Origin: a virus | Virus genome (UHGV): UHGV-0144373 | Strand: one strand, 5' to 3' | DNA: 64,000 bases | Shown here: in pieces, positions 3,167 to 49,696 of the stretch | Numbering within the stretch: the stretch's first letter is position 1 | Layout: every line of letters starts with the position of its first letter | Notes under the pieces: model-generated | Database searches by the model: none | The model's input: only the letters and a program-made list of their open reading frames with translations | What the model was told of the DNA's origin: nothing | Program-made: the position numbers and the translations under genes

Positions 3167-3653
3167 AGGATTTGGCAATTGCCCTACCTATGGTCATTGG
3201 GTATCTTTATGTGGGGAAGTTGACCCCACTAAACATTTTGGCTTTGTCTATTTAGTACACTGTAAGAAAACCGGACAATATTATATAGGAAAAAAACAGT
3301 TTAACAGTGTTACTAAAAGAAAAGTTGCTGGGAAGACCCGTAAGAAGATAGTCACTAAGGAAAGTGATTGGATGACTTACGAGACTTCTTCTGAGTATAT
3401 CAAAAAAGATATTGAAAGCTTTGGAAAAGAGTTTTTTGACTTTTACATTATCCAAACCTACTACACAAAAGGTGGCCTAGTCTATGGTGAAGCAAACCTT
3501 CAACATAAATTCGATGTAATGACAAAAAGAATTGACTCGAAGCTCAGACTCTTCTACAATGCCAATATTGCAGCAATTAAGTTTATTACTAAAGAAACTT
3601 ATGAAGATGCTGAAAAAAGAATCAATAAGGTAATGAAAGCAAATTGTGCTTGA
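3156..3653 (+). CDS. GIY-YIG-like nuclease domain protein (possible homing endonuclease)
   Basis: 165 aa; FGFVYLVHCKKTGQYYIGKK fits the GIY...YIG motif pattern; overlaps the FEN gene 3' end. Confidence 0.4.
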   Translation: MKIKGFGNCPTYGHWVSLCGEVDPTKHFGFVYLVHCKKTGQYYIGKKQFNSVTKRKVAGKTRKKIVTKESDWMTYETSSEYIKKDIESFGKEFFDFYIIQTYYTKGGLVYGEANLQHKFDVMTKRIDSKLRLFYNANIAAIKFITKETYEDAEKRINKVMKANCA

Positions 3654-3674
3654 CAACTATTGAGAGAGAATAAA

Positions 3675-3923
3675 ATGTTTAACAAAAGCAAAGCTGTGAG
3701 TCATGTAGCAAAAGTTGACAGCAAGATTGAAGAACTTGAGCGCACTCTTGCAAATGCTAGAGAGTCAATAATTAAAGAAGTTGAAGCTGTTGAATCTCAA
3801 ATGCAGCACCTAATGCTTAAACGCCAAGAGCTACGTGAGCATCTAGAATATATTGAAACACGAGAGCTAAAGGTTAACAAATATTTTAAGGAGTCCGAAT
3901 GTTTAACTCAAGAGAATCAGTAA
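3675..3923 (+). CDS. hypothetical protein (predicted coiled coil)
   Basis: ATG3675 after GAGAGAG; track start 3660 is TTG. Confidence 0.4.
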   Translation: MFNKSKAVSHVAKVDSKIEELERTLANARESIIKEVEAVESQMQHLMLKRQELREHLEYIETRELKVNKYFKESECLTQENQ

Positions 3924-22401: not shown

Positions 22402-23511
22402 ATGACTACTAAAACTAAAGCACAGATTGACGCAGAAATTTACAAACTGGTTAAAGAAGGTAAGCTTACTAAAACAGCTATTGCACAGAAGTTCAATACT
22501 TCAACCCGTTCAGTTGGTCGTGCTGTAGAGCGTCATGAAGCAACCTTAAAAGGTAAGAAAAAGGTAGCTTCTAAACCAGCTACGAAGACTTTGAAGCAAG
22601 TTGCTAAGTCAGTTAAAAAGAAAGCTGGAAAACCAGTTGAAAAGGTTGTTAAAGAGGTTGTACAAAAGGCTCCGGTAAATAAACTACACGAAGCTATGCA
22701 GAATGGCAACCAGATTGAGTACATGATTACTGGTGACTCTGTTATCATGACTTTCGGTGCAGATTCTGAAATAGTTGAATCTACCCATCCGAACTACAAA
22801 GAAATCGTGATGGCTGTTGTATCCGGTGAGTTTAAGAAAGCCTTTGAACTGATGAACATTCGTAAGTCTATCGAAAACTTCACTCAGGGTGCTATCACAA
22901 TCAAGGGTGACAAACTATTCTACGGTGCTGTTGAGATGCGTTCTACTCTGGTTGACCGTATTCTTCACATGATGAAGACTGGAGATAAAGGTTTTGAACG
23001 CCTTGTAATGTTCTTTGAAAAACTGATGGAAAACCCATCTAAAGATTCTGTAGAACAACTTTGGGGCTTCGTATCCCACCTTGATGTTGAAATTGATGAA
23101 GAAGGTTACATCATTGGTTGGAAGAAAGTCTCTACTCGTGAAGGTAAGCTGGTTGACTCCCACACCTACAGAGTACCTAATGATTTAGGTAACATTGTAG
23201 AAATGCCACGTTGGATGGTTGATAATAACCGTAACGTGACTTGCTCACAAGGTCTTCACGTTGGTGCTTGGGATTATGTTCGTTGCTTCTCAGGTGATAC
23301 AATTCTGAAGGTTCGTGTCCATCCACGAGATGTTGTATCTGTTCCAACTGATTACAACGATATGAAGATGCGTTCATCACGTTATGAAGTTGCAGCAATC
23401 GTTGACAATCAACGTAAAGTGCTGAAAGCATGGGATGGCAAGACTGAAGCTTTGCATGTCATCGTTGGTACTGCTGGCGAACTTATTTCTCAGCGTAAAC
23501 GTGAAATCTAA
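22402..23511 (+). CDS. rIIB: rIIB-like protein (tentative)
   Basis: 369 aa, directly downstream of the rIIA-like gene; Lys-rich N-terminal region; assignment by synteny only. Confidence 0.35.
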   Translation: MTTKTKAQIDAEIYKLVKEGKLTKTAIAQKFNTSTRSVGRAVERHEATLKGKKKVASKPATKTLKQVAKSVKKKAGKPVEKVVKEVVQKAPVNKLHEAMQNGNQIEYMITGDSVIMTFGADSEIVESTHPNYKEIVMAVVSGEFKKAFELMNIRKSIENFTQGAITIKGDKLFYGAVEMRSTLVDRILHMMKTGDKGFERLVMFFEKLMENPSKDSVEQLWGFVSHLDVEIDEEGYIIGWKKVSTREGKLVDSHTYRVPNDLGNIVEMPRWMVDNNRNVTCSQGLHVGAWDYVRCFSGDTILKVRVHPRDVVSVPTDYNDMKMRSSRYEVAAIVDNQRKVLKAWDGKTEALHVIVGTAGELISQRKREI

Positions 23512-23526
23512 TAAGTAATTTCTTAA

Positions 23527-23550
23527 AAGGCTGCTTCGGCGGCCTTTTTT
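23527..23550 (+). terminator. rho-independent terminator
   Basis: GGCTGC-TTCG-GCGGCC stem then TTTTTT. Confidence 0.5.
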
Positions 23551-23552
23551 AT

Positions 23553-23580
23553 TTGTATTTTGTGCAGAGTGCTGTATAAT
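23553..23580 (+). promoter_or_regulatory. sigma70-like promoter
   Basis: TTGTAT, 16-nt spacer, TATAAT (23575-23580). Confidence 0.4.
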
Positions 23581-23611
23581 TGTTGTCACGATAAACTAAA
23601 CAGGAGAACCA

Positions 23612-26881: not shown

Positions 26882-27667
26882 ATGGGTATTGTAAAAATAA
26901 TCAATGGTGATATCTTTGCCGCATTTGATAAAGGTAAGTTTGACATCATCGGTCACGGTTGCAACTGTATGAATTTAATGGGTGCAGGTATTGCAGCAAC
27001 TATTTCTAAGCGTTATCCAAAAGTGTATGATACTGACACAGAAGTTTACCTGTTTGCAGGCGGCATCCGTCACAAACCCTGTGAAAATTTACTGGGTAAT
27101 TTCTCCGTAGCACGTTTAAAACAAGGCCGTATAGCTAACCTTTACACCCAACTTCATACTGGTAAAGATGCCCGATACAGTGCTTTAGAGTCATCTTTGA
27201 AACAGCTTAACAGATACTGTGAAGTTAACCAGTTGAAGAAAGTTGGTCTACCTATGATTGGTGCAGGTATTGGTGGACTCGACCCTCAAGCCGCCACAGT
27301 TATCATTAATCAGGTGATGAAAAGTGTAGATGTTTATCTGTATGTCTACGAAGGAGAGATGTACCACAAGTTACTCTCAGGTTGGAAGAACTACTGTGAA
27401 CCAGAATACTTTGCAGGTGTAGTAACGTTCACAGATAATACAGTTACCCTCTTCAGACGAAGAAAAGGTAAGATACATCAAAGTAACCCTCCGGTTGAAA
27501 AGATGTCTCTAAGTAACGCTCTAGTTACCCACCTGTCGAAGAGCAATCACAGAATTGCTGTGACATTTGGTAGTGATGCCGATGCTTACATTTATGCAAG
27601 AACTGATGAGGATATCGAGGCAATCTTCTCTTCACCAGAAGTTACCTTCTTAGACGCAAAGAACTAA
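26882..27667 (+). CDS. macrodomain protein (TARG1/OARD1-like), possible ADP-ribose hydrolase
   Basis: GDIFAAFDKGKFDIIGHGCNCMNLMGAGIA and VGLPMIGAGIGGLDP match the macrodomain signature pattern; about 110-aa C-terminal extension. Confidence 0.55.
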   Translation: MGIVKIINGDIFAAFDKGKFDIIGHGCNCMNLMGAGIAATISKRYPKVYDTDTEVYLFAGGIRHKPCENLLGNFSVARLKQGRIANLYTQLHTGKDARYSALESSLKQLNRYCEVNQLKKVGLPMIGAGIGGLDPQAATVIINQVMKSVDVYLYVYEGEMYHKLLSGWKNYCEPEYFAGVVTFTDNTVTLFRRRKGKIHQSNPPVEKMSLSNALVTHLSKSNHRIAVTFGSDADAYIYARTDEDIEAIFSSPEVTFLDAKN

Positions 27668-27730
27668 GAAACTCTGTAGGATATTCACAATAGGCTAAGC
27701 CTTTCTTATCTGGTAAATTTTTCAGGTAAG

Positions 27731-27920
27731 GAGGGCTTTTTCATTTCAGATTTGTGCAGGTAGAGTTCTGTAGAGGAATCTATAGAGAAAATTTTGAACT
27801 CCAAAGAGCTTTTTCATTTTCAAACTGTGCAGGTAATCTCCAAAGAGCTTTTTCATTTTCAAAACGTGCAGAGAAAAATCAGGTCGGGCAAGAAAAATCA
27901 TTTTAGAATTGTGCAGGTAG
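27731..27920 (+). repeat. four direct repeats (about 33 bp; iteron-like)
   Basis: 27731-27763, 27803-27836, 27841-27873, 27888-27920 share (AAAGAGC)TTTTTCATTTTCAAA-N-GTGCAGGTA; AT-rich stretch follows. Confidence 0.6.
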
Positions 27921-28094
27921 GTGGGTGTAGGTGGGGATGTCGCCATTTCTCACAAGGCTACCACATCCGAAAAGAAAAGTCAACAGAAAAATTTGTAGCG
28001 GATTGAAAAATAATTCTTGATTTGTTTTCTGTTTTGTGGTATTCGCGTGCGCCCGTTTCATTACATTTTGCCAAAAATATTTTTAAAATTTTTC

Positions 28095-28123
28095 TTGACT
28101 CCTCGAACGGGTTTTTATAGTAT
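28095..28123 (+). promoter_or_regulatory. sigma70-like promoter
   Basis: TTGACT, 17-nt spacer, TAGTAT. Confidence 0.4.
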
Positions 28124-28171
28124 TTGCATCAGACGGGGCGACAAGCTCCCTTCCTAAAATGGAAAGTCTAG

Positions 28172-28259
28172 AAAGTACTTTACAAGGGGCTTAAAAGTTG
28201 TTACCTTAAGCCCCAGATAAAGAGCTTTACCAACAACCTTAAACTAGGAGAATATGAAA
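28172..28259 (+). promoter_or_regulatory. class-A cassette element (copy 1)
   Basis: AAAGTACTTTACAA, hairpin GGGGCTTAA-N-TTAAGCCCC, AGATAAAGAGCTTTACC, then SD GGAGA and ATG. Confidence 0.6.
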
Positions 28260-28643
28260 ATGGCATATCGTGCACCTAAATTCATCAATAAAGATAATTT
28301 CCGCAATGCACTGGAAAAATCACTTGATGAGAATTTTACAGGTCAGATTATTGTTGTTCACGCATTCAATTTTAAGTATGATATTAACGGGAATAAAATC
28401 AATCATTACACGGCAACAATGTTAGATGGCACGCTTTCAAGTGAAAAAGCCGTACTAAATGCGCTTGCAGGACGTGGTAAAAACCTGATAAGATGCGATA
28501 AGAGACGTTATCAGGGCGGCGCATATGGTTATGATGATACTGTTTATCATCTTGAAAACATGGGCTATCAAGTAGAAAAAGCTGGAGTGTCGCAGATTAT
28601 TGGTCGTGATGGTTATGTAACTATCTTCAAAATTAACAAATAA
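28260..28643 (+). CDS. hypothetical small protein (cassette gene a)
   Basis: ATG28260 aligned with the conserved SD-ATG context. Confidence 0.45.
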   Translation: MAYRAPKFINKDNFRNALEKSLDENFTGQIIVVHAFNFKYDINGNKINHYTATMLDGTLSSEKAVLNALAGRGKNLIRCDKRRYQGGAYGYDDTVYHLENMGYQVEKAGVSQIIGRDGYVTIFKINK

Positions 28644-28730
28644 AGTACTTTACAAGGGGCTTATAGTTCGATAAAGTAAGCCCCAGATAAAGAGCTTTAC
28701 CACTAAATCCTAAATTGGAGAATCTGAAAA
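28644..28730 (+). promoter_or_regulatory. class-A cassette element (copy 2)
   Basis: Same element; palindrome TAAAGTACTTTA includes the upstream stop codon. Confidence 0.6.
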
Positions 28731-34289: not shown

Positions 34290-35945
34290 TATCAAATCCC
34301 TTATACAACCCTTTCCCTTTCCTTTCCAGAATCTTTCCACTGATTCGATAAAGCCTATCTCATACCTTAAAAAGCAATAACTCTATAGCCTATTCTATAG
34401 CCTTTTATCAAATCCACTAATTGGCATTGTTACCAATCCCTTAAATATAAGCCCATAACCCGAAAGGGAAGGGCAACCCCTAAAACGCTCTATAACGCTC
34501 TATAACAGCCTTATCAACCTAACTTAATGGATTGCATTACCTCACCTTAAAAAGCTCTTTACAGGGCTTTATAGAGCCTTAAAAGAACCTTATAAGGGTA
34601 TAAGCTTTATCATCTCGTTAGTATTCTTGTGAACTACTAAAAAGGGTTTGATAGTTCCTTTAAAGTATGTTATAGGGGCTATAAAGTTACTTCAAAGTAA
34701 CGTAAAAGTTGCTTAAAAGTTACGTAAATGCTAGCCACCTTTAACATTTTCTTAACAATTTCTTAACAATCCCTACATAGTTATACTTGTTAGCAACTTG
34801 TCAGCCCCTTGTTAAATCTCTGTTAAGACCATGTAAAAGCCTTGTAAGAGTCTTTGACATAGCCTTTAAAGCTCCTGTAAAGCCCTATAAAGAGCTATCC
34901 ATACAGTTGAGGGGTAAATACTAGGGAGATACTAAAAGAGCCTATAAAGAGCTATAGAGAGCTTTTAAGAGGTATGTTTAAAGAATCACTAAAAGGGAAA
35001 GGGAACGATAAGAAAGAGATAGTGACCATGTTAACAGTTTGTTAAAAAGATTAAACACTTGTTAGGAACTTGTTAATTATCTTAATTGGTATTGTTACCA
35101 ATCCCTACAAAATAACTCTTTAAAATTAACTATATAGCTCTTGTTAGTCATCTATTAAGAATCTGTAAAGACTATTCAGCACTTGTTAGAAAACTGTTAC
35201 ACTCTTGTTAGTTCTGTTAAGAATCTGTTAAGACCTTTAAAGAGATGTTAAGACGATGTGAGAACTGTTAAGAGATTGTTAAGGATATTTTAAAATTTTG
35301 CAAAGGGGGTGTTAAGGAGCTGTTAAGGGCTACCAAGCAGATATACATCCTAATCAGATATTTTTCAGTTCCTTCAAAGACCCTAAAAAATGACTTGATA
35401 GTCCTATTTTATAAAAATTTTAAAATTCTGAATAATTACCTATACAGTCTTTTAAAAATACAGGTAGAAACAGGCTTATAAGATACCTTGTTAGTACCGT
35501 GTTAGACCTTGTGAGATAAGGTCTGTAAAGATATTCCTGTTAAGTTTGTTAAAACAGTCTATATAGAGGCTTAGTAATACCTAGTGAACACCTATAGAGG
35601 GTATCATAGCTAACCTAATGGGTTACTGTTAAGTAACACAGGTAACCTAGAGATTAAGAGGTGTATAGGAGCTTCTAAGAGGGTATAGAGAGATGGTTAA
35701 GGTGATTGTATAGGTTGTTAAGAAGGCTTGTTAGAGGGCTATTTAGAAGGGTTATACAGATGGCTATTAAGACCACTAGATAGTTACTAAGATACTATAT
35801 AGTACTATATAACTATATAGAGAGTAAGATTAAGAAGGTTGTTAAGAAGGATAGATATTTTATTCACATATGATGGTGACCCAGAGGTTGGGACAACCGA
35901 TAAAATTTTATAAAAAATATAAATTTCGTAAATTTTACTCAATAA
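34290..35945. repeat. 1.65-kb ORF-free, AT-rich region dense in short repeats
   Basis: No ORF of 60 aa or more on either strand; many copies of TGTTAAG/CTTGTTAG, TAAAGAGCT and TATAGAGAGCTT; duplicated 23-mer AATTGG(C/T)ATTGTTACCAATCCCT at 34419-34441 and 35084-35106. Confidence 0.7.
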
Positions 35946-44484: not shown

Positions 44485-44561
44485 CTCTGTTTAGCTCAGC
44501 TTGGTAGAGCGTTCCGTTTGGGGCGGTAAGGCCGGAGGTTCAAGTCCTCCAACAGAGACCA
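44485..44561 (+). tRNA. tRNA-Pro (anticodon TGG)
   Basis: Cloverleaf folded by eye: acceptor CTCTGTT/AACAGAG, anticodon loop TTTGGGG, T-loop TTCAAGT, encoded CCA. Confidence 0.65.
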
Positions 44562-44568
44562 AATTAAT

Positions 44569-44646
44569 GTTCCAGTAGACAAAATGGTATAGTCACCACT
44601 CTTTCAAAGTGGATATCTGAGGGTTCAAATCCCTTCTGGAACGCCA
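44569..44646 (+). tRNA. tRNA-Glu (anticodon TTC)
   Basis: Acceptor GTTCCAG/CTGGAAC, anticodon loop CTTTCAA, T-loop TTCAAAT, CCA. Confidence 0.6.
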
Positions 44647-44653
44647 GTTTTGA

Positions 44654-44725
44654 CAGAAGACCAATTACAGCAAACTTAATCTACTCATCTGACACGAAAT
44701 CGGACAAAGAAGATATTTGGTCTGG
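44654..44725 (+). repeat. inter-tRNA structured element, CAGAAGACC...GGTCTGG family (copy 1)
   Basis: Starts CAGAAGACCAATTACAGCAA, ends TTGGTCTGG; termini complementary. Confidence 0.45.
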
Positions 44726-44737
44726 TCATTGAGAATT

Positions 44738-44813
44738 GCGGGTATAGAGAAAGGGCGTCTCACATGTCTCATTAGCATGGTATCGGCAGGTTCGACTCCT
44801 GCACCCGCCTCCA
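44738..44813 (+). tRNA. tRNA with anticodon CAT (Met, fMet or Ile2)
   Basis: Anticodon stem CATGT/GCATG, loop CTCATTA, T-arm GCAGG-TTCGACT-CCTGC, CCA; acceptor has one mismatch. Confidence 0.45.
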
Positions 44814-44819
44814 ATTTTG

Positions 44820-44880
44820 CAGAAGACCGTATTCAGCAACAAAATACTTTTTGCGGATAAAAGAAAAAACACGGTCTGGC
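44820..44880 (+). repeat. inter-tRNA structured element (copy 2)
   Basis: CAGAAGACCGTATTCAGCAA...ACGGTCTGGC. Confidence 0.45.
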
Positions 44881-44890
44881 AATGTATTAA

Positions 44891-44967
44891 GGTTAGGAAG
44901 CACATAAGGTATGTGCGGTCGCCTGTTAAGCGAATGGCACAGGGTTCGAATCCCTGACTAACCGCCA
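44891..44967 (+). tRNA. tRNA-Asn (anticodon GTT)
   Basis: D-stem GCAC/GTGC, anticodon loop CTGTTAA, T-arm CAGGG-TTCGAAT-CCCTG, CCA. Confidence 0.6.
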
Positions 44968-45036
44968 AATTTAGGAGAGAAGCGATTGCTCACCGATTTG
45001 TAAGGTGCAAGTCCTTAGCCTGAATAGAAATTAAAT

Positions 45037-45124
45037 GTGTCGTTATCCCGTAGATGGTAGCGGTGGGGACTGTAAATCCCTTGTCATTGAGACTCGGTAG
45101 GTTCGACTCCTACACGGCACACCA
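45037..45124 (+). tRNA. tRNA-Tyr (anticodon GTA), long variable arm
   Basis: Acceptor GTGTCGT/ACGGCAC, anticodon loop CTGTAAA, 15-nt variable arm, T-arm GTAGG-TTCGACT-CCTAC, CCA. Confidence 0.6.
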
Positions 45125-45129
45125 ATAAA

Positions 45130-45207
45130 GGTTATGTAGTTTAATTTGGTTAAAATACTCCCCTGTCACGGGAGATGATGAGGGTTCAAATCCCTTCGTA
45201 ACCGCCA
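45130..45207 (+). tRNA. tRNA-Asp (anticodon GTC)
   Basis: Acceptor GGTTATG/CGTAACC, anticodon stem CTCCC/GGGAG, loop CTGTCAC, CCA. Confidence 0.65.
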
Positions 45208-45268
45208 ATTTTGAGAGGGCTATTTAGCCCCTCCCTTAAAGGGTTCTTACGAGTATCCTTTAAAGGAG

Positions 45269-45341
45269 CAGAAGACCAAATACAGCAAGAACGTATGAAA
45301 TTTCAAGCCAATTTAATTTTGAAAATTTAAACTTGGTCTGG
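45269..45341 (+). repeat. inter-tRNA structured element (copy 3)
   Basis: CAGAAGACCAAATACAGCAA...ACTTGGTCTGG. Confidence 0.45.
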
Positions 45342-45354
45342 CTCAACAAATTTA

Positions 45355-45486
45355 CAGAAGACCGTTTACAGCAAAACTTAAACAATCTATTTCTCCGGTA
45401 AAGAAAAGGCGAAGGTTCGATTCCTTCACTCGGCAGATGTCGAGTTGGTGTAATGGTAGCACTTAAGATGATAAACAACGGTCTGG
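45355..45486 (+). repeat. inter-tRNA structured element (copy 4) containing tRNA-like hairpins
   Basis: CAGAAGACCGTTTACAGCAA...CGGTCTGG; inside: T-arm-like GAAGG-TTCGATT-CCTTC, acceptor-like hairpin ACTCGGC-AGAT-GTCGAGT, D-arm-like GTG-TAATGGTAG-CAC. Confidence 0.4.
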
Positions 45487-45488
45487 TA

Positions 45489-45630
45489 ATTATCTTTGTA
45501 GATAAGTTATTAAGCTTACCTGTGAGTATGCGACCACAAAGGGTGAAAGGGTAAATTCTAGATTTAAACCCAAAAAGGCACATCGCTACAGACCTTAAGC
45601 AAGTCTGGGTAGCTTATCTACAAAGATAAT
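45489..45630 (+). repeat. perfect 18-bp inverted repeat flanking a 106-nt structured segment
   Basis: ATTATCTTTGTAGATAAG (45489-45506) and its exact reverse complement CTTATCTACAAAGATAAT (45613-45630). Confidence 0.7.
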
Positions 45631-45635
45631 TTAAT

Positions 45636-45711
45636 GGAAGTGTAGCAGAATGGTGATGCGGCAGACTTTTAATCTGACAGGCGATGGGTTCGAATCCCTC
45701 CACTTCTACCA
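45636..45711 (+). tRNA. tRNA-Lys (anticodon TTT)
   Basis: Acceptor GGAAGTG/CACTTCT, anticodon loop CTTTTAA, T-loop TTCGAAT, CCA; T-stem weak. Confidence 0.5.
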
Positions 45712-45715
45712 AAAT

Positions 45716-45792
45716 GGTTCAGTCGCAGATAAGGTAATGCAAGGGTCTCATAAGCCCTATGAATGTGGGTTCGATTCCCATCTGAACCTCCA
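45716..45792 (+). tRNA. tRNA-Met (anticodon CAT)
   Basis: Acceptor GGTTCAG/CTGAACC, anticodon stem AGGGT/GCCCT, loop CTCATAA, T-arm GTGGG-TTCGATT-CCCAT, CCA. Confidence 0.6.
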
Positions 45793-45794
45793 AT

Positions 45795-45869
45795 TGTGGG
45801 TTAGCATAAATGGTAATGCAAACGGCTGATAACCGTTAGAAGAGGGTTCGATACCCTCACCTACAACCA
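45795..45869 (+). tRNA. tRNA-Ile (anticodon GAT)
   Basis: D-stem GCAT/ATGC, anticodon stem AACGG/CCGTT, loop CTGATAA, T-arm GAGGG-TTCGATA-CCCTC, CCA. Confidence 0.65.
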
Positions 45870-45884
45870 ATTTCAATAAAGTTG

Positions 45885-45913
45885 TTGACATTGAGATGTG
45901 ACTACTTTATAGT
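45885..45913 (+). promoter_or_regulatory. sigma70-like promoter inside tRNA array
   Basis: TTGACA, 17-nt spacer, TATAGT. Confidence 0.5.
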
Positions 45914-46117
45914 AACCTTAGTTTTCGTTGCGTAGCGTCTATTTTGCAAATTTAAAATAAATGCAAACGACAATGTTTTTCTGGCAGTAGCTTGATAGGC
46001 TAAACACCAGTGAGGTCTTCCAATCCCTCATCAAAGAATTTGGCGTACTCGCCCACGGTATGATTAATAAGGTGGGCATCTTTAAGGGCTTTCTAAGAGA
46101 GTCTTTAAAGATAATTA

Positions 46118-46199
46118 CGGGGCGTATCTCAGCTGTCTTCTAAACAGCCGTTAACCGAGTAAGTGGAGTATGCGGGTTCGAGTCCTGCCGCCTCGACCA
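46118..46199 (+). tRNA. atypical tRNA-like gene, anticodon TCT (Arg); D-arm apparently missing
   Basis: Acceptor CGGGGCG/CGCCTCG, perfect anticodon arm GCTGT-CTTCTAA-ACAGC, T-arm GCGGG-TTCGAGT-CCTGC, CCA; only 5 nt between position 9 and the anticodon stem, and a 23-nt variable region. Confidence 0.35.
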
Positions 46200-46342
46200 A
46201 TTTAGTTAGCAGATTACTTAGACGACCTAAGCGGGTCTTCCTGTAGGGAGGTGGTCTGTATCTCATGTTTTCCAGAACATGTAAATAATCTGAGAAGGGG
46301 CTTTACAGTGTTGAGATAATACGGTAAGCTTCGAATTATAGT

Positions 46343-46425
46343 ATGGGATGATGTTAAGACTCTAAGGCATGAGCAACGGCTTCCAACACCGTTTCAAAGG
46401 GGTTCAACTCCTCCGTCCCATGCCA
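46343..46425 (+). tRNA. tRNA, anticodon undetermined (possibly Trp, CCA)
   Basis: Acceptor ATGGGAT/GTCCCAT, T-loop TTCAACT, CCA; best anticodon hairpin AACGG/CCGTT around TTCCAAC; about 7 extra nt in the D region. Confidence 0.3.
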
Positions 46426-46438
46426 AAGTCTTATTAGG

Positions 46439-46528
46439 GGTAGGTAGCGGCTAATGGTAGCCAAACTGTCTTGAAAACAGTTGCCACTGTAGAGATACGG
46501 TGAGGGTTCGACTCCTTTACTTACCGCC
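46439..46528 (+). tRNA. tRNA-Ser (anticodon TGA), long variable arm
   Basis: Acceptor GGTAGGT/ACTTACC, anticodon stem ACTGT/ACAGT, loop CTTGAAA, about 20-nt variable arm, discriminator G. Confidence 0.6.
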
Positions 46529-46784
46529 TAATAAGATTTTAAAGCCAAGCTTCATTCGGATGTTGCTTTGGTATCCCTCGTGTATTGTCTAACACACTGA
46601 TAAATCACCTAGTAGGTGTCACGGAGAAGAGATAATATCAAGCTCTCCAAAGGTTCTAGTCACCGGATTAAACAAGACTATGCAAAGACCTTTTTAGGTC
46701 TTTTTAGAGGGCTTCTAAGGTTATTACAGCTTGTTGTGGAACCTTGTTGCTTAGGTTCTTAGAAGTTCTCTAAAAAGATTTAAT

Positions 46785-46861
46785 GCACCTATAGCCCAAC
46801 TGGTAGAGGCAGCAGACTTAGAATCTGCTCAGTGTGAGTTCGAATCTCTCTAGGTGTACCA
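46785..46861 (+). tRNA. tRNA with anticodon TAG (Leu by anticodon) but short variable arm
   Basis: Acceptor GCACCTA/TAGGTGT, anticodon stem GCAGA/TCTGC, loop CTTAGAA, 5-nt variable loop, discriminator A, CCA. Confidence 0.5.
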
Positions 46862-46868
46862 AATTAAT

Positions 46869-46944
46869 GCAGGTGTAGCAAAATGGTTATGCGGCTGACT
46901 CTTAATCAGTAAGACGATGGGTTCAATTCCCTCCACCTGTACCA
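46869..46944 (+). tRNA. tRNA-Lys (anticodon CTT)
   Basis: Paralogous to the TTT tRNA; anticodon loop CTCTTAA; T-loop TTCAATT; CCA. Confidence 0.55.
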
Positions 46945-46950
46945 AACATT

Positions 46951-47026
46951 GGGGATGTAGTTTACATGGTTAAAACATAAGTTTTGCAAACTTAAGTACA
47001 GGGTTCAATTCCCTGCTTCTCCACCA
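46951..47026 (+). tRNA. tRNA-Ala (anticodon TGC)
   Basis: G3:U70 wobble in acceptor (Ala identity element), anticodon stem TAAGT/ACTTA, loop TTTGCAA, T-arm CAGGG-TTCAATT-CCCTG, CCA. Confidence 0.65.
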
Positions 47027-47032
47027 ATTAGT

Positions 47033-47107
47033 GCATCCATAGTTTAAATGGGAAAATTACAGTCTTCCAAACTGAGGTTGAGGGTTCGATTCCCTCTGGA
47101 TGCTCCA
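47033..47107 (+). tRNA. tRNA-Gly (anticodon TCC)
   Basis: Acceptor GCATCCA/TGGATGC, anticodon loop CTTCCAA, T-arm GAGGG-TTCGATT-CCCTC, CCA. Confidence 0.6.
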
Positions 47108-47114
47108 AATTAAT

Positions 47115-47190
47115 GCTCCTATCGTATAATTGGCTATTACGGTTGCCTTGTAAGCAACTTATCAGGGTTCGAATCCTTGTGGGAGCACCA
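47115..47190 (+). tRNA. tRNA-Thr (anticodon TGT)
   Basis: Acceptor GCTCCTA/TGGGAGC, anticodon stem GTTGC/GCAAC, loop CTTGTAA, CCA. Confidence 0.65.
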
Positions 47191-47285
47191 ATTCAGAGGT
47201 CAAGTGAAAGACCGCTGGTGTCAACTGAAGACCGTAACAAATTCCACGGAGTTGAGTTAGCGGCACAACTTCAGACCTCTTTCAT

Positions 47286-47360
47286 ACTCGCTTAGTTTAT
47301 ATGGTAAAACACCACCCTTACAAGATGAAGAAAAAGGTTCAAGTCCTTTAGTGAGTACCA
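47286..47360 (+). tRNA. tRNA-Val (anticodon TAC), weak anticodon stem
   Basis: Acceptor ACTCGCT/AGTGAGT, D-stem GTTT/AAAC, loop CTTACAA with 3 of 5 stem pairs, T-arm AAAGG-TTCAAGT-CCTTT, CCA. Confidence 0.45.
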
Positions 47361-47361
47361 T

Positions 47362-47439
47362 GTTCCAGTATCCCAATTGGCAGAGGATGCAAGCTCAAAC
47401 CTTGTATTAGTGATGGTTCGAATCCGTCTTGGAACACCA
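47362..47439 (+). tRNA. tRNA with anticodon CAA (Leu by anticodon) but short variable arm
   Basis: Acceptor GTTCCAG/TTGGAAC, anticodon stem GCAAG/CTTGT, loop CTCAAAC, discriminator A, CCA. Confidence 0.5.
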
Positions 47440-47444
47440 ATTTT

Positions 47445-47520
47445 GCAGGATTAGTTCAAATGGATAGAGCAACAGTCTACGAAGCTGTTAATAGGGGTTC
47501 GAATCCCTTATCCTGCACCA
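47445..47520 (+). tRNA. tRNA-Arg (anticodon ACG)
   Basis: Acceptor GCAGGAT/ATCCTGC, anticodon loop CTACGAA, T-arm AGGGG-TTCGAAT-CCCTT, CCA. Confidence 0.65.
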
Positions 47521-47538
47521 GACAAGTAAGAGGAATTT

Positions 47539-47781
47539 ATGCAAACATTAATCGTCATTGAACATGAAAATTCCAATAGTATTGAGTTTGTAAGGGTTCC
47601 CACTATAGATACCCACATTTTCTTGAAAGTCGGATGGGGATGTGACCCAATAAAAGTAGAAAATTTTATTGGTCATTACTTTGGTGGAAGACAACTTAAA
47701 AGCGTCAATTTTGAGACAATGTTACCAGAAAACTCAGAAACAAATAATAATGTTTATCTCCTTACGAGGATTAGACAATGA
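47539..47781 (+). CDS. hypothetical protein embedded in tRNA array
   Basis: 80 aa; AAGAGGA SD. Confidence 0.4.
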   Translation: MQTLIVIEHENSNSIEFVRVPTIDTHIFLKVGWGCDPIKVENFIGHYFGGRQLKSVNFETMLPENSETNNNVYLLTRIRQ

Positions 47782-48335
47782 GATATCTGAAGTATGCTTC
47801 ATGGATTTTCCTAGCTTTGTTAGAACCATTGGCAGCAACCTTAGCAGTTATCTTAGCACCCTTTGTAGTCCCATTCTACAGTGAGAAGAAAGGTCATCTA
47901 CCTTTTGGATTCAGATGGATGGAGACATATGACAACCCAATTGATGGTGATAAAGGTCATGTCGAACGATGGGCTAAGATTAGAAAGATTGGTAAGCTTG
48001 GTGTCTATATGCAGAGAGTTGGTTGGCTCTGGAGAAACAAAGCTTATAACTTCTCTTACCATGTGTTAGGAAGAGATGTAAAAGATGTTACTAAGTGGAA
48101 AGGTAATATCAATGTAAGTTCTAACCCTGAAGATAATCAGACAGGTTATCTCCTAATGTGGAACAGTAATGCTTGGGGATTATTCGCTTTTATCCCGTCA
48201 ATTAAAGTCTTTGGTAATCAATTCTACTGGAGAATTTATGTTGGGTGGAAACTTAAAAGTGTTGTCCCAAAAGAAAGAGCATTCTCAAGGGAAAGAGTTA
48301 TGTTGGCATTCTTTATTCATCCACTGAGAAAGTAA
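47778..48335 (+). CDS. hypothetical membrane-associated protein embedded in tRNA array
   Basis: 185 aa; hydrophobic N-terminus; ATGA overlap with upstream ORF. Confidence 0.4.
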   Translation: MRYLKYASWIFLALLEPLAATLAVILAPFVVPFYSEKKGHLPFGFRWMETYDNPIDGDKGHVERWAKIRKIGKLGVYMQRVGWLWRNKAYNFSYHVLGRDVKDVTKWKGNINVSSNPEDNQTGYLLMWNSNAWGLFAFIPSIKVFGNQFYWRIYVGWKLKSVVPKERAFSRERVMLAFFIHPLRK

Positions 48336-48343
48336 AGATTTAA

Positions 48344-48419
48344 AGGGGATTAGTTTACAAGGTTAAAACCTCGGTCTTTGAAATCGAAGAAGTTGGTTCA
48401 ATTCCAACATCCCCCGCCA
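48344..48419 (+). tRNA. tRNA-Gln (anticodon TTG)
   Basis: Acceptor AGGGGAT/ATCCCCC (1:72 mismatch), anticodon loop CTTTGAA, T-arm GTTGG-TTCAATT-CCAAC, CCA. Confidence 0.55.
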
Positions 48420-48421
48420 AT

Positions 48422-48500
48422 GCTCCATTACTCCAATTGGCAGAGAGGCCAGACTTAAAATCTGTGTTATGTATCGGTTCGAATCCGATATGGAGTACCA
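48422..48500 (+). tRNA. tRNA with anticodon TAA (Leu by anticodon) but short variable arm
   Basis: Acceptor GCTCCAT/ATGGAGT, anticodon loop CTTAAAA, T-arm ATCGG-TTCGAAT-CCGAT, discriminator A, CCA. Confidence 0.5.
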
Positions 48501-48505
48501 AATTT

Positions 48506-48581
48506 AGCGGTATAGCATAACTGGCAATGCAGCAGCCTCTGAAGCTGTCCTATTAAGGTTCAAATCCTTATGCCGCTGCCA
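48506..48581 (+). tRNA. tRNA-Gln (anticodon CTG)
   Basis: Acceptor AGCGGTA/TGCCGCT, anticodon stem GCAGC/GCTGT, loop CTCTGAA, T-arm TAAGG-TTCAAAT-CCTTA, CCA. Confidence 0.6.
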
Positions 48582-48612
48582 CTTCTAAGGATTCTTGCGA
48601 GAGTCCTTAAAT

Positions 48613-48688
48613 GTGGCCTTATCATAAACGGTAATGACCCATGCTGTGAACATGGTCTATACGGGTTCAAATCCCGTAGGTCACCCCA
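48613..48688 (+). tRNA. tRNA-His (anticodon GTG)
   Basis: Acceptor GTGGCCT/AGGTCAC, anticodon stem CCATG/CATGG, loop CTGTGAA, discriminator C, CCA. Confidence 0.65.
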
Positions 48689-48693
48689 ATTTA

Positions 48694-48770
48694 TAGTCCA
48701 AGTAGCTTATATGGTTAAAGCGCGTGTCTGAAAAACATGAGAAGAGGGTTCAAATCCCACTGGACTACCA
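48694..48770 (+). tRNA. tRNA-Phe (anticodon GAA)
   Basis: D-stem GCTT/AAGC, anticodon stem CGTGT/ACATG, loop CTGAAAA, T-loop TTCAAAT; exact 5' boundary ambiguous. Confidence 0.5.
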
Positions 48771-48786
48771 ATTTCAAAGGTGCTTA

Positions 48787-49521
48787 ATGAAAGAGATGAC
48801 AGAACAAGGTAAGGAGATTTTTAATCTCTTAAAAACCGGTAAAGGGTTCTCTAACCCGCTTATTACTGGTGCAGCAGTTCTCGGTGGAACCGTAGCTGCT
48901 TCTACATCACTTGTAAGCTCTATTAGTTCTGTAACAGACCCTACAATGAAGGAGAAACTTGTTGCTGCTGGGCTTACAACAGTCCTTCTAAACAGCTTTA
49001 CAACAAGCCTTACAAGCACTACAGCAACTACTAAAACTCTGACAGACTACGGTCAAAAGTCTATTGATGAGTTTTCATCACGTATGCAGGTAGCAAAGGG
49101 GTATTCCAATGTTATGGGTGCAGCAGGAGAACAAGTTGGTTGTACACCATTCAGTGGTATCATGGGTGTTGCTACAGAGTATGGTCAAAAAGCTATTGAC
49201 ATGATAAACAGTACACTAGATAGTGTTAATGGTGTGTTAAGTGACTTACAAGATGCTATTGATAAGGGTCTTGATACTGTTTCTGATTTAGCTAACCAAG
49301 CTGTCAGTAAGATTAATGAAGGTATCTCAAAGATTACAGCTTATGCAGATGAAGTTGTGCAGATGATTGAAGAAGAAGCTGCCCTTATTGCAGAGTACCT
49401 TAAAACGAATATCAATGGGTTCTTAGCAGGTATCTTACCAGACTGGTTTGATGATGCTTGTAAAACTGGTGTAATTGATGCTATTGCAACACCAGAAATG
49501 AAGAACGCATTACAGAAATAA
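48787..49521 (+). CDS. hypothetical Ser/Thr-rich protein
   Basis: ATG48787 after AAAGG; the track start at 48724 (GTG) would overlap tRNA-Phe. Confidence 0.4.
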   Translation: MKEMTEQGKEIFNLLKTGKGFSNPLITGAAVLGGTVAASTSLVSSISSVTDPTMKEKLVAAGLTTVLLNSFTTSLTSTTATTKTLTDYGQKSIDEFSSRMQVAKGYSNVMGAAGEQVGCTPFSGIMGVATEYGQKAIDMINSTLDSVNGVLSDLQDAIDKGLDTVSDLANQAVSKINEGISKITAYADEVVQMIEEEAALIAEYLKTNINGFLAGILPDWFDDACKTGVIDAIATPEMKNALQK

Positions 49522-49523
49522 AT

Positions 49524-49616
49524 GGAAGATTAACCCTAAAAGGTAAGGGAGCAGTTTGCTAAACTGCCAGTAGCTGAGAAATCGGTGTACCAGTTCAAGT
49601 CTGGTATCTTCCTCCA
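49524..49616 (+). tRNA. tRNA-Ser (anticodon GCT), long variable arm
   Basis: Acceptor GGAAGAT/ATCTTCC, anticodon stem GCAGT/ACTGC, loop TTGCTAA, 21-nt variable arm, T-arm ACCAG-TTCAAGT-CTGGT, CCA. Confidence 0.6.
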
Positions 49617-49620
49617 ATTT

Positions 49621-49696
49621 GAATCCGTGACAGAAATGGCTATGTGCCTGTCTGCAAAACAGGTTTATAAGGGTTTGAGTCCCTTCGGATTCTCCA
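49621..49696 (+). tRNA. tRNA-Cys (anticodon GCA)
   Basis: Acceptor GAATCCG/CGGATTC, anticodon stem CCTGT/ACAGG, loop CTGCAAA, non-canonical T-loop TTTGAGT, CCA. Confidence 0.5.

What the first reader, a model, noticed from the sequence alone, without database searches (positions are those of the whole stretch)
27731..28130. Four iteron-like direct repeats plus AT-rich stretch downstream of the macrodomain gene
Four copies of a 33-bp unit ((AAAGAGC)TTTTTCATTTTCAAA-N-GTGCAGGTA) lie within 190 bp, two of them directly adjacent, followed by an AT-rich segment and a sigma70-like promoter (TTGACT-17-TAGTAT). This iteron-plus-AT-rich layout is typical of replication origins or multi-site operator regions. 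The repeats share the AAAGAGCTTT core with the class-A cassette elements.
Basis: seen in the sequence. Interest (0 to 1): 0.55.

Follow-up and report, generated by a model that had tools for sequence, protein, structure and literature searches.

The report
Conserved four-repeat array in Felixounaviruses
A cluster of three to four ~28-bp direct repeats in a gene-free gap of this Felix O1-type phage is real, occurs once per genome and is conserved across four phage genera, so it is very probably a protein-binding control site (perhaps a replication origin), but its function is untested and small insertions into it do not harm a related phage in the lab.

Summary
The window is a Felixounavirus (Felix O1-like myovirus). 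The four repeats are real: cores TCATTT(T)-N7-GTGCAGGTA at 27741-27762, 27814-27835, 27853-27874 and 27898-27919. The motif occurs nowhere else in the window or in a complete 87-kb relative. The array sits at the same place, after the macrodomain-gene terminator t13, in Felixounavirus, Suspvirus, Mooglevirus and Erwinia Kolesnikvirus. It has 3-4 copies there and genus-specific but fixed spacing. It evolves 3-8 times more slowly than neighbouring third-codon positions, shows no codon periodicity and no RNA structure or covariation, and has no Rfam, plasmid or E. coli match. It is therefore a selected DNA-level element. It is not at the genome ends: the 581-bp terminal repeat maps 7 kb downstream. 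The "AT-rich stretch" is only a 37-nt UP-element-like run directly upstream of the conserved TTGACT-17-TAGTAT promoter, 138 bp from the array. The shared AAAGAGCTTT core is shallow. No initiator gene was found, and barcode insertions inside the array in phage Bas63 are neutral on the three host backgrounds whose data I read. Best guess: a multi-site protein-binding array, most likely an auxiliary origin like T4 oriE (about 0.3). A terminator/promoter insulator or regulator platform is almost as likely.

The parts
27697..27748 (+). Intrinsic terminator of the macrodomain gene (Felix O1 't13'): long hairpin plus T-tract. Its 3' arm and T-tract form the left half of repeat copy 1.
   Evidence: Terminator scan, (stem 27697-27738, tail TTTCATTTCA). 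Same sequence is listed as t13, dG -21.8, in Whichard 2010 Table 2 (PMC3185647). The stem sequence differs between genera while remaining self-complementary.
27729..27762 (+). Repeat copy 1 (core TCATTTCAGATTTGTGCAGGTA, 27741-27762)
   Evidence: PSSM 40.1 bits; present in all genera.
27767..27787 (+). Two TCTRTAGAG words 12 bp apart in the long spacer between copies 1 and 2. The word is not specific to this locus.
   Evidence: The word is frequent elsewhere (71 matches with up to 1 mismatch against 34 expected). The spacer is more variable than the copies (pi 0.073).
27799..27835 (+). Repeat copy 2 (core 27814-27835). In this phage only, its 5' part has been converted to the copy-3 type.
   Evidence: 41.2 bits; pi 0.019; conversion seen.
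27838..27874 (+). Repeat copy 3 (core 27853-27874, ends GTGCAGAGA)
   Evidence: 37.7 bits; pi 0.043.
27886..27919 (+). Repeat copy 4 (core 27898-27919, A-tract type GAAAAATCATTTTAGAATTGTGCAGGTA)
   Evidence: 34.6 bits; pi 0.018.
27917..27967 (.). Variable G/T-rich segment (GTAGGTGGGT x1.9). Many relatives, including all Suspvirus, Mooglevirus and Kolesnikvirus arrays read here, have instead a C-rich tract on the + strand; in Felixounavirus it is the homopyrimidine mirror repeat CCCCTCTCCCCCTCT-TAC-TCCCCCTCTCCCC.
   Evidence: TRF; 44% AT; alternative versions; highest variability of the gap.
27976..28022 (.). Most conserved non-coding block of the gap (AAAGTCAACAGAAAAATTTGTAGCGGATTGAAAAATAATTCTTGATT); function unknown.
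   Evidence: Pairwise difference 0-0.11 per 10-nt bin over 27976-28015 among 40 distinct sequences. A degenerate 34-mer was found in 26 viral contigs.
28058..28094 (+). AT-rich run (84% AT) directly upstream of the -35 hexamer, i.e. at the UP-element position.
28095..28123 (+). Sigma-70-type promoter TTGACT-17-TAGTAT. In relatives it drives a 68-aa ORF that is deleted in this window.
   Evidence: conserved in SUSP1, Michonne and phiEa21-4; ORF deletion.

Best explanation
The array is a DNA-level cis element made of three to four same-orientation binding sites for a sequence-specific protein that has not been identified. Each site is bipartite (TCATTT, 7 A/T-rich bases, GTGCAG) and is preceded by an A5 or T5 tract. 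The sites lie in a gap that is shielded from transcription: terminator t13 is upstream and an outward-firing early promoter is downstream. Bound proteins would build a higher-order nucleoprotein complex there. I think its most likely use is as an auxiliary, individually dispensable origin of replication. The closest precedent is the conserved iteron cluster at T4 oriE, which also sits near an early-mode promoter. What is shown: the element exists, is unique in the genome, is non-coding, is not a structured RNA, is under purifying selection and is conserved in position across four genera. What is inferred: that a protein binds it. What is a guess: that it works in replication.
For: Four sites score 35-41 bits and nothing else exceeds noise in the 64-kb window or in the whole 87.1-kb Bas63 genome. 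The array sits at the same position in Felixounavirus, Suspvirus, Mooglevirus and Kolesnikvirus. In Erwinia phages the array is the only part of the gap that BLAST still detects (query 140-248). The array is retained next to a macrodomain allele of only about 40% amino-acid identity. Diversity is 0.018-0.049 in the copies, against 0.142 at third codon positions and 0.19 in the spacer between copies 3 and 4; there is no 3-nt periodicity. RNA folding gives z = +0.97 and +1.03, and the alignment fold is weak, with 1 of 23 predicted pairs keeping a two-sided change and a covariation term that is a small penalty. Rfam gives no hit. All copies are direct and asymmetric, as iterons are. The review of T4 origins describes conserved syntenic iterons at oriE, an early-promoter dependence and an unproven role (PMC3016281).
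Against: No initiator-like protein was found among the neighbouring genes or in the replication module. Pfam and PHROGs recognise only a T7 gp4-like primase-helicase and one HTH_3 regulator; a family-A DNA polymerase is known only from the annotation of relatives. Spacing is 73/39/45 bp (75/41/45 in Suspvirus/Mooglevirus; 37/37/39 in Kolesnikvirus), so it is not the regular two-turn spacing of classical iterons. The only AT-rich run is 138 bp away and upstream of the promoter. DnaA, IHF and Fis consensus sites are not enriched. There is no GC-skew switch. Barcode insertions inside the array in Bas63 ('gene 96', record 64142-64297, which spans the four sites at 64131-64315) score +0.24 to +0.93 on three host backgrounds, against about -2.3 for the primase-helicase. 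There is no similarity to plasmid origins.
Confidence: 0.3

Rival explanations
1. The array is a transcriptional insulator or regulator platform. A protein bound to the sites, the first of which begins at the T-tract of terminator t13, would block read-through from the upstream operon (rIIA/B, spanins, macrodomain). It might also modulate the downstream early promoter.
For: Copy 1 overlaps the terminator's 3' arm and T-tract in three genera, and in phiEa21-4 it follows the terminator directly. The array lies exactly between a terminator and the first promoter of the small-gene cluster. Neutral insertions in laboratory hosts fit a fine-tuning role. The phage encodes a Cro/C1-type HTH_3 protein that is essential in Bas63.
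Against: The sites lie 176-370 bp upstream of the -35 hexamer and have no dyad symmetry, whereas HTH_3 dimers usually bind palindromes. None of the other early promoters (about seven cassettes carry the AAAGAGCTTT word) has the motif. No regulator gene is adjacent.
Confidence: 0.25
2. The array is a conserved boundary ('linker') sequence. It would persist because homologous recombination at it shuffles flanking gene modules, without a dedicated binding protein.
For: The flanks are mosaic: two macrodomain alleles of about 40% identity, G-rich or C-rich versions of the next segment, and presence or absence of small ORFs downstream. Copies exchange sequence, as in the window's copy 2 and in L029's copy 2, which carries a copy-4-type core.
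Against: Conservation is at the level of the motif. The cores stay fixed while the spacers between copies diverge, and the motif survives at about 75% overall identity in Erwinia phages. Linker homogenisation alone does not predict this.
Confidence: 0.08
3. The element acts as RNA: an unstructured U-rich/C-rich leader (for example Rho loading after read-through of t13) or a small non-coding RNA.
For: The transcript would be less structured than shuffled controls (z about +1). In many relatives a C-rich, G-poor tract follows on the + strand.
Against: The array lies downstream of a strong terminator, and the consensus scan found no promoter reading into it on either strand. The C-rich tract is replaced by a G-rich one on the same strand in this window's clade. 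There is no covariation and no Rfam hit.
Confidence: 0.05
4. The array is a packaging signal or a repeat associated with the genome ends.
For: Several assemblies (IMG/VR contigs and GenBank EC106) break within about 60 bp after copy 4, with Nextera adapters at the contig ends.
Against: The PhageTerm-defined 581-bp direct terminal repeat of Felixounavirus Pr103Blw is annotated in MW481326 and maps to window ~34735-35334. UAB_Phi87 has a 608-bp terminal repeat shown by Bal31 digestion and run-off sequencing (PMC4837284). The assembly breaks coincide with a homopyrimidine mirror repeat (a G4 motif on the other strand), which plausibly causes coverage drop-out.
Confidence: 0.02
5. The repeats encode a small repeat-containing protein; several depositors annotated ORFs here.
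For: Open frames exist on both strands, and Tribble_125, Meda_119, bas63_0096/0097 and Michonne gp098 are annotated over the array.
Against: The annotated ORFs disagree in strand and frame. There is no 3-nt periodicity of substitutions (0.049/0.051/0.046, against 0.027/0.019/0.142 in the neighbouring gene). Copy spacings of 41, 37 and 73-77 bp break any common frame between genera. There is no strong AGGAG-type RBS like those of the neighbouring genes.
Confidence: 0.03

Closest known systems
T4 oriE iteron cluster (reviewed in PMC3016281)
   Same: A cluster of direct repeats in a lytic myovirus, conserved at syntenic positions in relatives, near an early-mode promoter. It is individually non-essential and has no proven link between the repeats and initiation.
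   Different: The T4 repeats are 12 nt and evenly spaced, and candidate genes (repEA/repEB) are adjacent. Here the units are 28-38 bp with 37-75 bp spacing, no adjacent candidate gene, a T7-like rather than T4-like replisome, and no sequence similarity.
Lambda ori and iteron plasmid origins (R6K, F, pSC101) - from my own knowledge
   Same: Three to seven asymmetric or quasi-symmetric sites of about 20 bp in direct orientation, each with A/T tracts.
   Different: Those have about two-turn spacing, an immediately adjacent AT-rich unwinding element, and a cognate initiator gene at or next to the iterons. None of the three was found here. BLAST against 72,556 plasmids gave only chance hits.
Transcription-primed phage origins: T4 oriF/oriG (PMC3016281) and the T7 primary origin (own knowledge)
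   Same: A strong promoter and an AT-rich tract in a non-coding region. The replisome of this phage includes a T7 gp4-like primase-helicase and probably a gp2.5-like SSB (acidic C-terminal tail).
   Different: In those origins the unwinding element lies downstream of the promoter and no repeat array is needed. Here the AT-rich run is upstream of the promoter and the array is 176 bp further upstream.
Felix O1 terminator t13 (Whichard et al. 2010, PMC3185647)
   Same: The left half of copy 1 is the published terminator's 3' arm and T-tract. The tail CTTTTTCATTT recurs in terminators t5 and t35.
   Different: Copies 2-4 have no hairpin. The paper lists 12 direct repeats of at least 24 bp, but the repeat passages of the paper that the term search returned do not mention this array.
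Promoter-in-hairpin cassettes of the downstream small-gene cluster (Whichard's 57-bp repeat). They resemble the PeSL cassettes of T4-type phages (own knowledge).
   Same: They share the 10-mer AAAGAGCTTT with copies 2 and 3 of this window.
   Different: The cassettes are promoter plus stem-loop units repeated before many genes. The array units have no promoter or hairpin, and the shared 10-mer is not conserved in the arrays of the Erwinia phages.

Membership tests
Iteron-type replication origin | Three or more direct repeats of one asymmetric site of about 20 bp | tested here: met
   Four sites score 35-41 bits, all on the + strand; relatives have 3-4 copies.
Iteron-type replication origin | Regular, helically phased spacing (about 21-23 bp) | tested here: not met
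   Spacings are 73/39/45, 75/41/45 and 37/37/39 bp. Only some pairs are near-integral in helical turns (73 = 7.0, 84 = 8.0).
Iteron-type replication origin | Adjacent AT-rich DNA-unwinding element | tested here: not met
   The array is followed by a 44%-AT segment. The only strongly AT-rich run (28058-28094, 84%) is 138 bp away, at the UP position of the promoter.
Iteron-type replication origin | Cognate initiator protein encoded at or near the iterons | tested here: not met
   Neighbouring proteins and those of the replication module give no Rep/O/initiator family in Pfam or PHROGs. Many proteins are of unknown function, so absence is not proven.
Iteron-type replication origin | Replication initiates there, or the fragment supports or interferes with replication | not testable with these tools
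   There is no GC-skew switch, but skew follows transcription in this genome. Bas63 insertions in the array are neutral.
Transcription-primed origin (T4 oriF/G, T7 type) | Promoter followed downstream by an AT-rich unwinding element | tested here: not met
   The promoter is at 28095-28123. The downstream leader is 58.5% AT, and the AT-rich run lies upstream.
Operator array of a transcriptional regulator | Sites overlapping or adjoining the regulated promoter, usually with dyad symmetry | tested here: not met
   The cores lie 176-370 bp upstream of the -35 hexamer and have no dyad. The motif is absent from all other promoters.
pac/cos or terminal-repeat-associated repeats | Location at or next to the physical genome ends | tested here: not met
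   The terminal repeat maps to window ~34735-35334, 6.8-7.4 kb from the array; terminal repeats were shown experimentally in UAB_Phi87.
Structured non-coding RNA / CRISPR-like repeats | Conserved secondary structure with covariation, or a match to a known family | tested here: not met
   z = +0.97 and +1.03. The alignment fold gives -8.4 kcal/mol, with 1 of 23 predicted pairs keeping a two-sided change and a covariation term that is a small penalty. No Rfam match at E <= 1.
Protein-coding tandem repeat | Conserved reading frame with a third-position excess of substitutions | tested here: not met
   Diversity by phase is 0.049/0.051/0.046. Spacing is not a multiple of three in other genera.
Intrinsic terminator | G+C-rich hairpin followed by a T-tract | tested here: met
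   Met for copy 1 only, through its overlap with t13. Copies 2-4 have the T-tract-like left half but no hairpin.

The most novel reading that the evidence does not exclude
The array, together with the adjoining homopurine/homopyrimidine (H-DNA/G4-prone) tract, could be a polar barrier on DNA rather than an origin or an operator. One possibility is a stop or pause signal that delimits the terminal 7.4 kb (about 8% of the genome). That segment carries the promoter-rich cluster of small genes, which would be analogous to the first-step-transfer boundary of phage T5 (recalled from memory, not tested). Another possibility is a Ter-like trap of same-orientation sites for replication forks or RNA polymerase. 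The evidence does not exclude this: the sites are unique, all in one orientation, sit at a module boundary, and are non-essential in rich laboratory conditions.
Probability: 0.06. Interest if true: 0.75.

Novelty: new member of a known kind. Interest (0 to 1): 0.42.

Why it matters
Felix O1 and its relatives are classic diagnostic and biocontrol phages. Whichard et al. 2010 state that how their transcription is temporally regulated is not known, and my literature searches found no described replication origin for them. This array is a sharply defined, subfamily-wide, single-copy cis element with clear purifying selection. That makes it a concrete handle: a 190-bp bait to pull down the binding protein, a defined target for deletion, and a candidate origin for plasmid-based tests. 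If it is an origin, it would show an iteron-type element working with a T7-like replisome. If it is an insulator, it would explain how the small-gene cluster is separated from the upstream operon. For genome engineering it matters that barcode insertions in the array are tolerated. For assembly it matters that contigs tend to break just after it.

Tried and rejected
1. Genome ends or pac site. I suspected this when several contigs and GenBank EC106 ended just after copy 4 with Nextera adapters. I rejected it because the annotated 581-bp terminal repeat of Pr103Blw maps 7 kb downstream and the terminal repeats of UAB_Phi87 were shown by Bal31 digestion. One paper claims headful packaging for another Felixounavirus, so the literature is not unanimous.

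2. Coding. Rejected on substitution phase and frame breaks.

3. Structured RNA. Rejected.

4. Tandem sigma-70 promoters inside the units. The consensus scan finds none. Hand inspection gives only weak TTTTCA-17-TAGAGT/TAATCT matches that are lost in relatives. A possible extra promoter, TTGATT(28017)-17-TATTCG, has a conserved G at the last position of the second hexamer, where sigma-70 promoters have a near-invariant T, so I dropped it.

5. Host-factor sites (DnaA, IHF, Fis, CRP, T7-type primase sites, Chi). None is enriched. A resemblance of the core to OmpR-type direct half-sites was only recalled from memory and not tested.

6. Similarity to plasmid origins or E. coli DNA. None.

7. An adjacent initiator or regulator. 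Neighbours are all of unknown function. The essential 285-aa protein of the replication module has an acidic C-terminal tail and is more likely a gp2.5-type SSB.

8. GC-skew inflection. None at the array.

9. The same array next to distant macrodomain genes in other viral or metagenomic contigs. Absent.

10. A second motif, TCTRTAGAG. Not locus-specific.

11. Literature searches for Felix O1 or Ounavirinae together with iterons, origin or repeats. Nothing describes this array.

Full report
**Identity of the window.** The region matches 252 phage records by megablast, almost all of them Felixounavirus (Felix O1-like myoviruses of Escherichia, Salmonella and Shigella). The finding lies in a 586-bp gene-free gap. 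On one side is a 261-aa Macro-domain protein (26882-27667, Pfam Macro E = 7.7e-8), usually annotated 'phosphatase'. On the other is a 129-aa protein of unknown function starting at 28254.

**The observation.** The four repeats are there. Aligned on GTGCAG (27754, 27827, 27866, 27911), the common core is TCATTT(T)-[C/A][A/G]A[A/T][T/C][T/C]-GTGCAG(GTA). It is preceded by a T5 or A5 tract and a G.
- A 22-mer consensus with up to 3 mismatches finds three copies against 0.01 expected. Copy 1 has one T fewer.
- A 28-nt weight matrix built from 48 distinct copies scores the four sites 34.6-41.2 bits. The next site in the window scores 14.4, inside the null range (maximum 18.5). The matrix positions fixed by my extraction pattern are invariant partly by construction, but the independent MAFFT alignment shows the same invariant blocks.
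- Copies 2 and 3 form a 39-bp tandem with 94% identity. This is peculiar to this phage: every other distinct array has GAGAAAATTC or a close variant in copy 2, so the window carries a short conversion patch from copy 3.
- The promoter TTGACT-17-TAGTAT is at 28095-28123.

**The 'AT-rich segment' is weaker than stated.** The gap is 62.5% AT against 61.2% for the window. The array is followed by a 44%-AT G-rich stretch. Only 28058-28094 (84% AT) stands out, and it sits exactly where an UP element of that promoter would be.

**Conservation.** BLASTN finds the gap in 293 phage records.
- The array lies directly after the macrodomain-gene terminator in Felixounavirus, Suspvirus (SUSP1), Mooglevirus (Michonne) and Kolesnikvirus (Erwinia phage phiEa21-4). 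In the last, the core reads ...GTGCATAG.
- In the Erwinia phages the array is the only part of the gap that BLAST still aligns (query 140-248).
- Spacing is fixed within a lineage but differs between lineages: 73/39/45 in Felixounavirus, 75/41/45 (also 77/39/45 and 73/39/45) in the Suspvirus/Mooglevirus-like contigs, and 37/37/39 in Kolesnikvirus. Natural three-copy variants have 75/45 or 75/39.
- The three-copy variants sit beside a macrodomain allele of only about 40% amino-acid identity, yet their cores are nearly identical to the window's.
- More distant macrodomain contexts have no such array.

**Selection.** Among 19 distinct Felixounavirus sequences, nucleotide diversity is 0.027/0.019/0.142 at codon positions 1/2/3 of the macrodomain gene. 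It is 0.049, 0.019, 0.043 and 0.018 in copies 1-4, 0.073 in the long spacer, and 0.19 in the spacer between copies 3 and 4. The array shows no three-base periodicity (0.049/0.051/0.046). The copies therefore evolve like non-synonymous sites while the DNA between them evolves neutrally.

**What it is not.**
- Not coding. Besides the lack of periodicity, spacings of 41, 37 and 73-77 bp break any common frame. The ORFs that depositors drew over it disagree in strand and frame.
- Not a structured RNA. Both strands fold worse than shuffled controls (z = +0.97 and +1.03). A 14-sequence, four-genus alignment gives a weak consensus (-8.4 kcal/mol over 260 columns), with only 1 of 23 predicted pairs keeping a two-sided change and a covariation term that is a small penalty. 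Rfam finds nothing even at E <= 1.
- Not a general promoter or operator word. In the complete 87,100-bp genome of Bas63 only the four array sites score above noise.
- Not at the genome ends. I considered this seriously because four IMG/VR contigs and GenBank EC106 terminate within about 60 bp after copy 4, some with Nextera adapter sequence attached. However, Felixounavirus Pr103Blw has PhageTerm-defined 581-bp direct terminal repeats that are annotated in its record (PMC8303462). They map to window ~34735-35334, which puts the array about 6.8 kb from the repeat and 7.4 kb from the physical end. UAB_Phi87 has a 608-bp terminal repeat shown by Bal31 digestion and run-off sequencing (PMC4837284). 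The assembly breaks fall in a homopyrimidine mirror repeat (CCCCTCTCCCCCTCT-TAC-TCCCCCTCTCCCC, a G4 motif on the other strand). That tract replaces the window's G-rich tract in many relatives, so coverage drop-out is the simpler explanation.
- No host-factor consensus (DnaA, IHF, Fis, CRP, Chi, T7-type primase sites) is enriched.
- There is no similarity to 72,556 plasmids or to E. coli genomes.

**Anatomy of the gap.**
- The left half of copy 1 is the 3' arm and T-tract of the long terminator hairpin 27697-27738. This is terminator t13 of Felix O1 (Whichard et al. 2010, Table 2). The left halves of the other T-type copies look like that tail (GCTTTTTCATTTT) without a hairpin, so the units may have arisen by duplication of the terminator tail plus the downstream core. 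This is inference.
- After copy 4 comes a variable G- or C-rich segment. Its two versions look like diverged inversions of each other and occur on otherwise near-identical backgrounds.
- Next comes the most conserved block of the whole gap (27976-28015).
- Last come the AT-rich run and the promoter. In relatives the promoter drives a 68-aa ORF that is deleted in this window.
- The array thus sits in a pocket shielded from transcription, with a strong terminator upstream and a promoter firing away from it downstream.

**Functional data from a relative.** The PhageMaP study inserted short barcodes (16N plus flanks with stop codons) at 2-4 Cas9 sites per annotated gene of Bas63 (bioRxiv 10.1101/2024.10.10.617714).
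- Its 'gene 96' (record 64142-64297) is a spurious ORF lying inside the array, whose sites are at 64131-64315.
- Fitness scores for gene 96 are +0.65/+0.62/+0.24 (S17), +0.93/+0.83/+0.65 (a second laboratory host) and +0.57/+0.77/+0.71 (TerY-P defence background). These are typical of non-essential genes; in the second laboratory host the primase-helicase scores about -2.3.
- 'Gene 97' (copy 4, the G-rich tract and the conserved block) gave no data.
- Splitting the array by a small insertion is therefore tolerated. This argues against a unique essential origin or packaging site. It does not exclude an auxiliary origin or a fine-tuning regulatory site, because each site stays intact and phages such as T4 run several redundant origins (PMC3016281).

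**Search for a partner protein.** Ten downstream proteins and one upstream neighbour match only PHROGs of unknown function or no Pfam family, and the adjacent upstream gene has only its Macro domain. The replication module gives a T7 gp4-like Toprim + DnaB_C primase-helicase, a homing-endonuclease domain, a pyrophosphohydrolase and unknowns. The only recognisable sequence-specific DNA binder is a 99-aa HTH_3 protein, essential in Bas63 and encoded about 37 kb away. An essential 285-aa unknown ends in ...DEEDEDFDTED and is more likely a gp2.5-type SSB (inference).

**Interpretation.** I regard the DNA-level, selected, single-locus nature of the array as established (about 0.8 that it is a protein-binding element). 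What the complex does is not established.
- I rank an auxiliary origin first (about 0.3). Uniqueness, direct asymmetric repeats, a transcription-free setting next to a strong early promoter, and the precedent of the conserved but still unexplained iterons of T4 oriE all fit.
- A terminator/promoter insulator or regulator platform is nearly as likely (about 0.25), given the overlap of copy 1 with t13 and the neutrality of insertions.
- Linker, RNA, coding and packaging readings are minor.
- Classical membership in 'iteron origins' fails on spacing, on an adjacent unwinding element and on an initiator gene. I therefore describe the array as iteron-like in form only.

**Novelty.** I found no description of this array in the searchable literature. 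Whichard et al. list other repeats and the t13 terminator, state that temporal regulation of transcription in this phage is unknown, and their retrieved repeat and origin passages do not mention the array. Searches combining Felix O1, Ounavirinae, iterons, origin and repeats returned nothing relevant. It is a new, well-delimited example of a known kind of feature, of moderate interest, and directly testable.

Noticed in passing
window 1-64000: GATC is completely absent (0 sites against 184 +/- 11 expected). Many 6-bp palindromes are also missing (CTGCAG 0 vs 23.5, ATGCAT 0 vs 11.8, GAATTC 0 vs 7.9 expected). This is extreme restriction/Dam-site avoidance.
   Followed up: partly
window ~34735-35334: This segment corresponds to the 581-bp direct terminal repeat of Felixounavirus Pr103Blw. 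It is packed with CTTGTTAA/CTGTTAAG words, many at 11-bp spacing and in both orientations, and is a much denser repeat field than the finding. It is a candidate site for packaging or end-processing signals.
   Followed up: partly
window 28172-28260, 28642-28730 and further copies up to ~32100: A promoter-in-hairpin cassette precedes each small gene: TTTACA-17-TAAAGT/TACCTT embedded in GGGGCTTA...TAAGCCCC, then AGATAAAGAGCTTTAC. It equals Whichard's 57-bp repeat. AAAGAGCTTT occurs 11 times against 0.5 expected. Small ORFs between cassettes come and go among relatives; a 68-aa ORF after the 28095 promoter is deleted here.
   Followed up: partly
window 27917-27967; L012 3540-3600, L005 1400-1460: The segment after copy 4 exists in two forms on otherwise near-identical backgrounds. 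One is GT-rich on the + strand (this window). The other is a homopyrimidine mirror repeat, prone to H-DNA and G4 formation. Several assemblies break exactly in the second form, with Nextera adapters at the contig ends.
   Followed up: partly
window 27976-28022: The most conserved non-coding block of the gap (AAAGTCAACAGAAAAATTTGTAGCGGATTGAAAAATAATT...), more conserved than the repeats themselves. Function unknown. No convincing promoter on either strand is conserved across both forms of the neighbouring segment.
   Followed up: partly
window 23528-23590: The terminator after the gene whose Bas63 homologue is annotated rIIB (window ORF 22402-23511; Felix O1 terminator t2) is followed by TTTTTTATTTGTATTTTGTGCAGAG and a perfect TATAAT. 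Its tail resembles the repeat core, but it scores only 14.4 bits. The site is conserved at this position in all genera examined.
   Followed up: partly
L070 568-1347, L071 568-1347, L084-L086 1501-2274: Two very divergent alleles of the macrodomain gene (about 40% amino-acid identity) occur in otherwise closely related Felixounaviruses, next to the same repeat array. This points to allele replacement at this boundary.
   Followed up: no
window 1206-2063: A 285-aa protein of unknown family, essential in Bas63 (gene 55), has a strongly acidic C-terminal tail (...DDEEDEDFDTED). It is probably the missing T7 gp2.5-type single-strand DNA-binding protein.
   Followed up: partly
L015 (IMG/VR 3300045988_004180) 3520-3698: The contig is chimeric. 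Phage sequence is joined to GC-rich, bacterial-looking sequence right after copy 3.
   Followed up: no
window 44485-49696: A cluster of 25 tRNA genes, as expected for this phage group.
   Followed up: no
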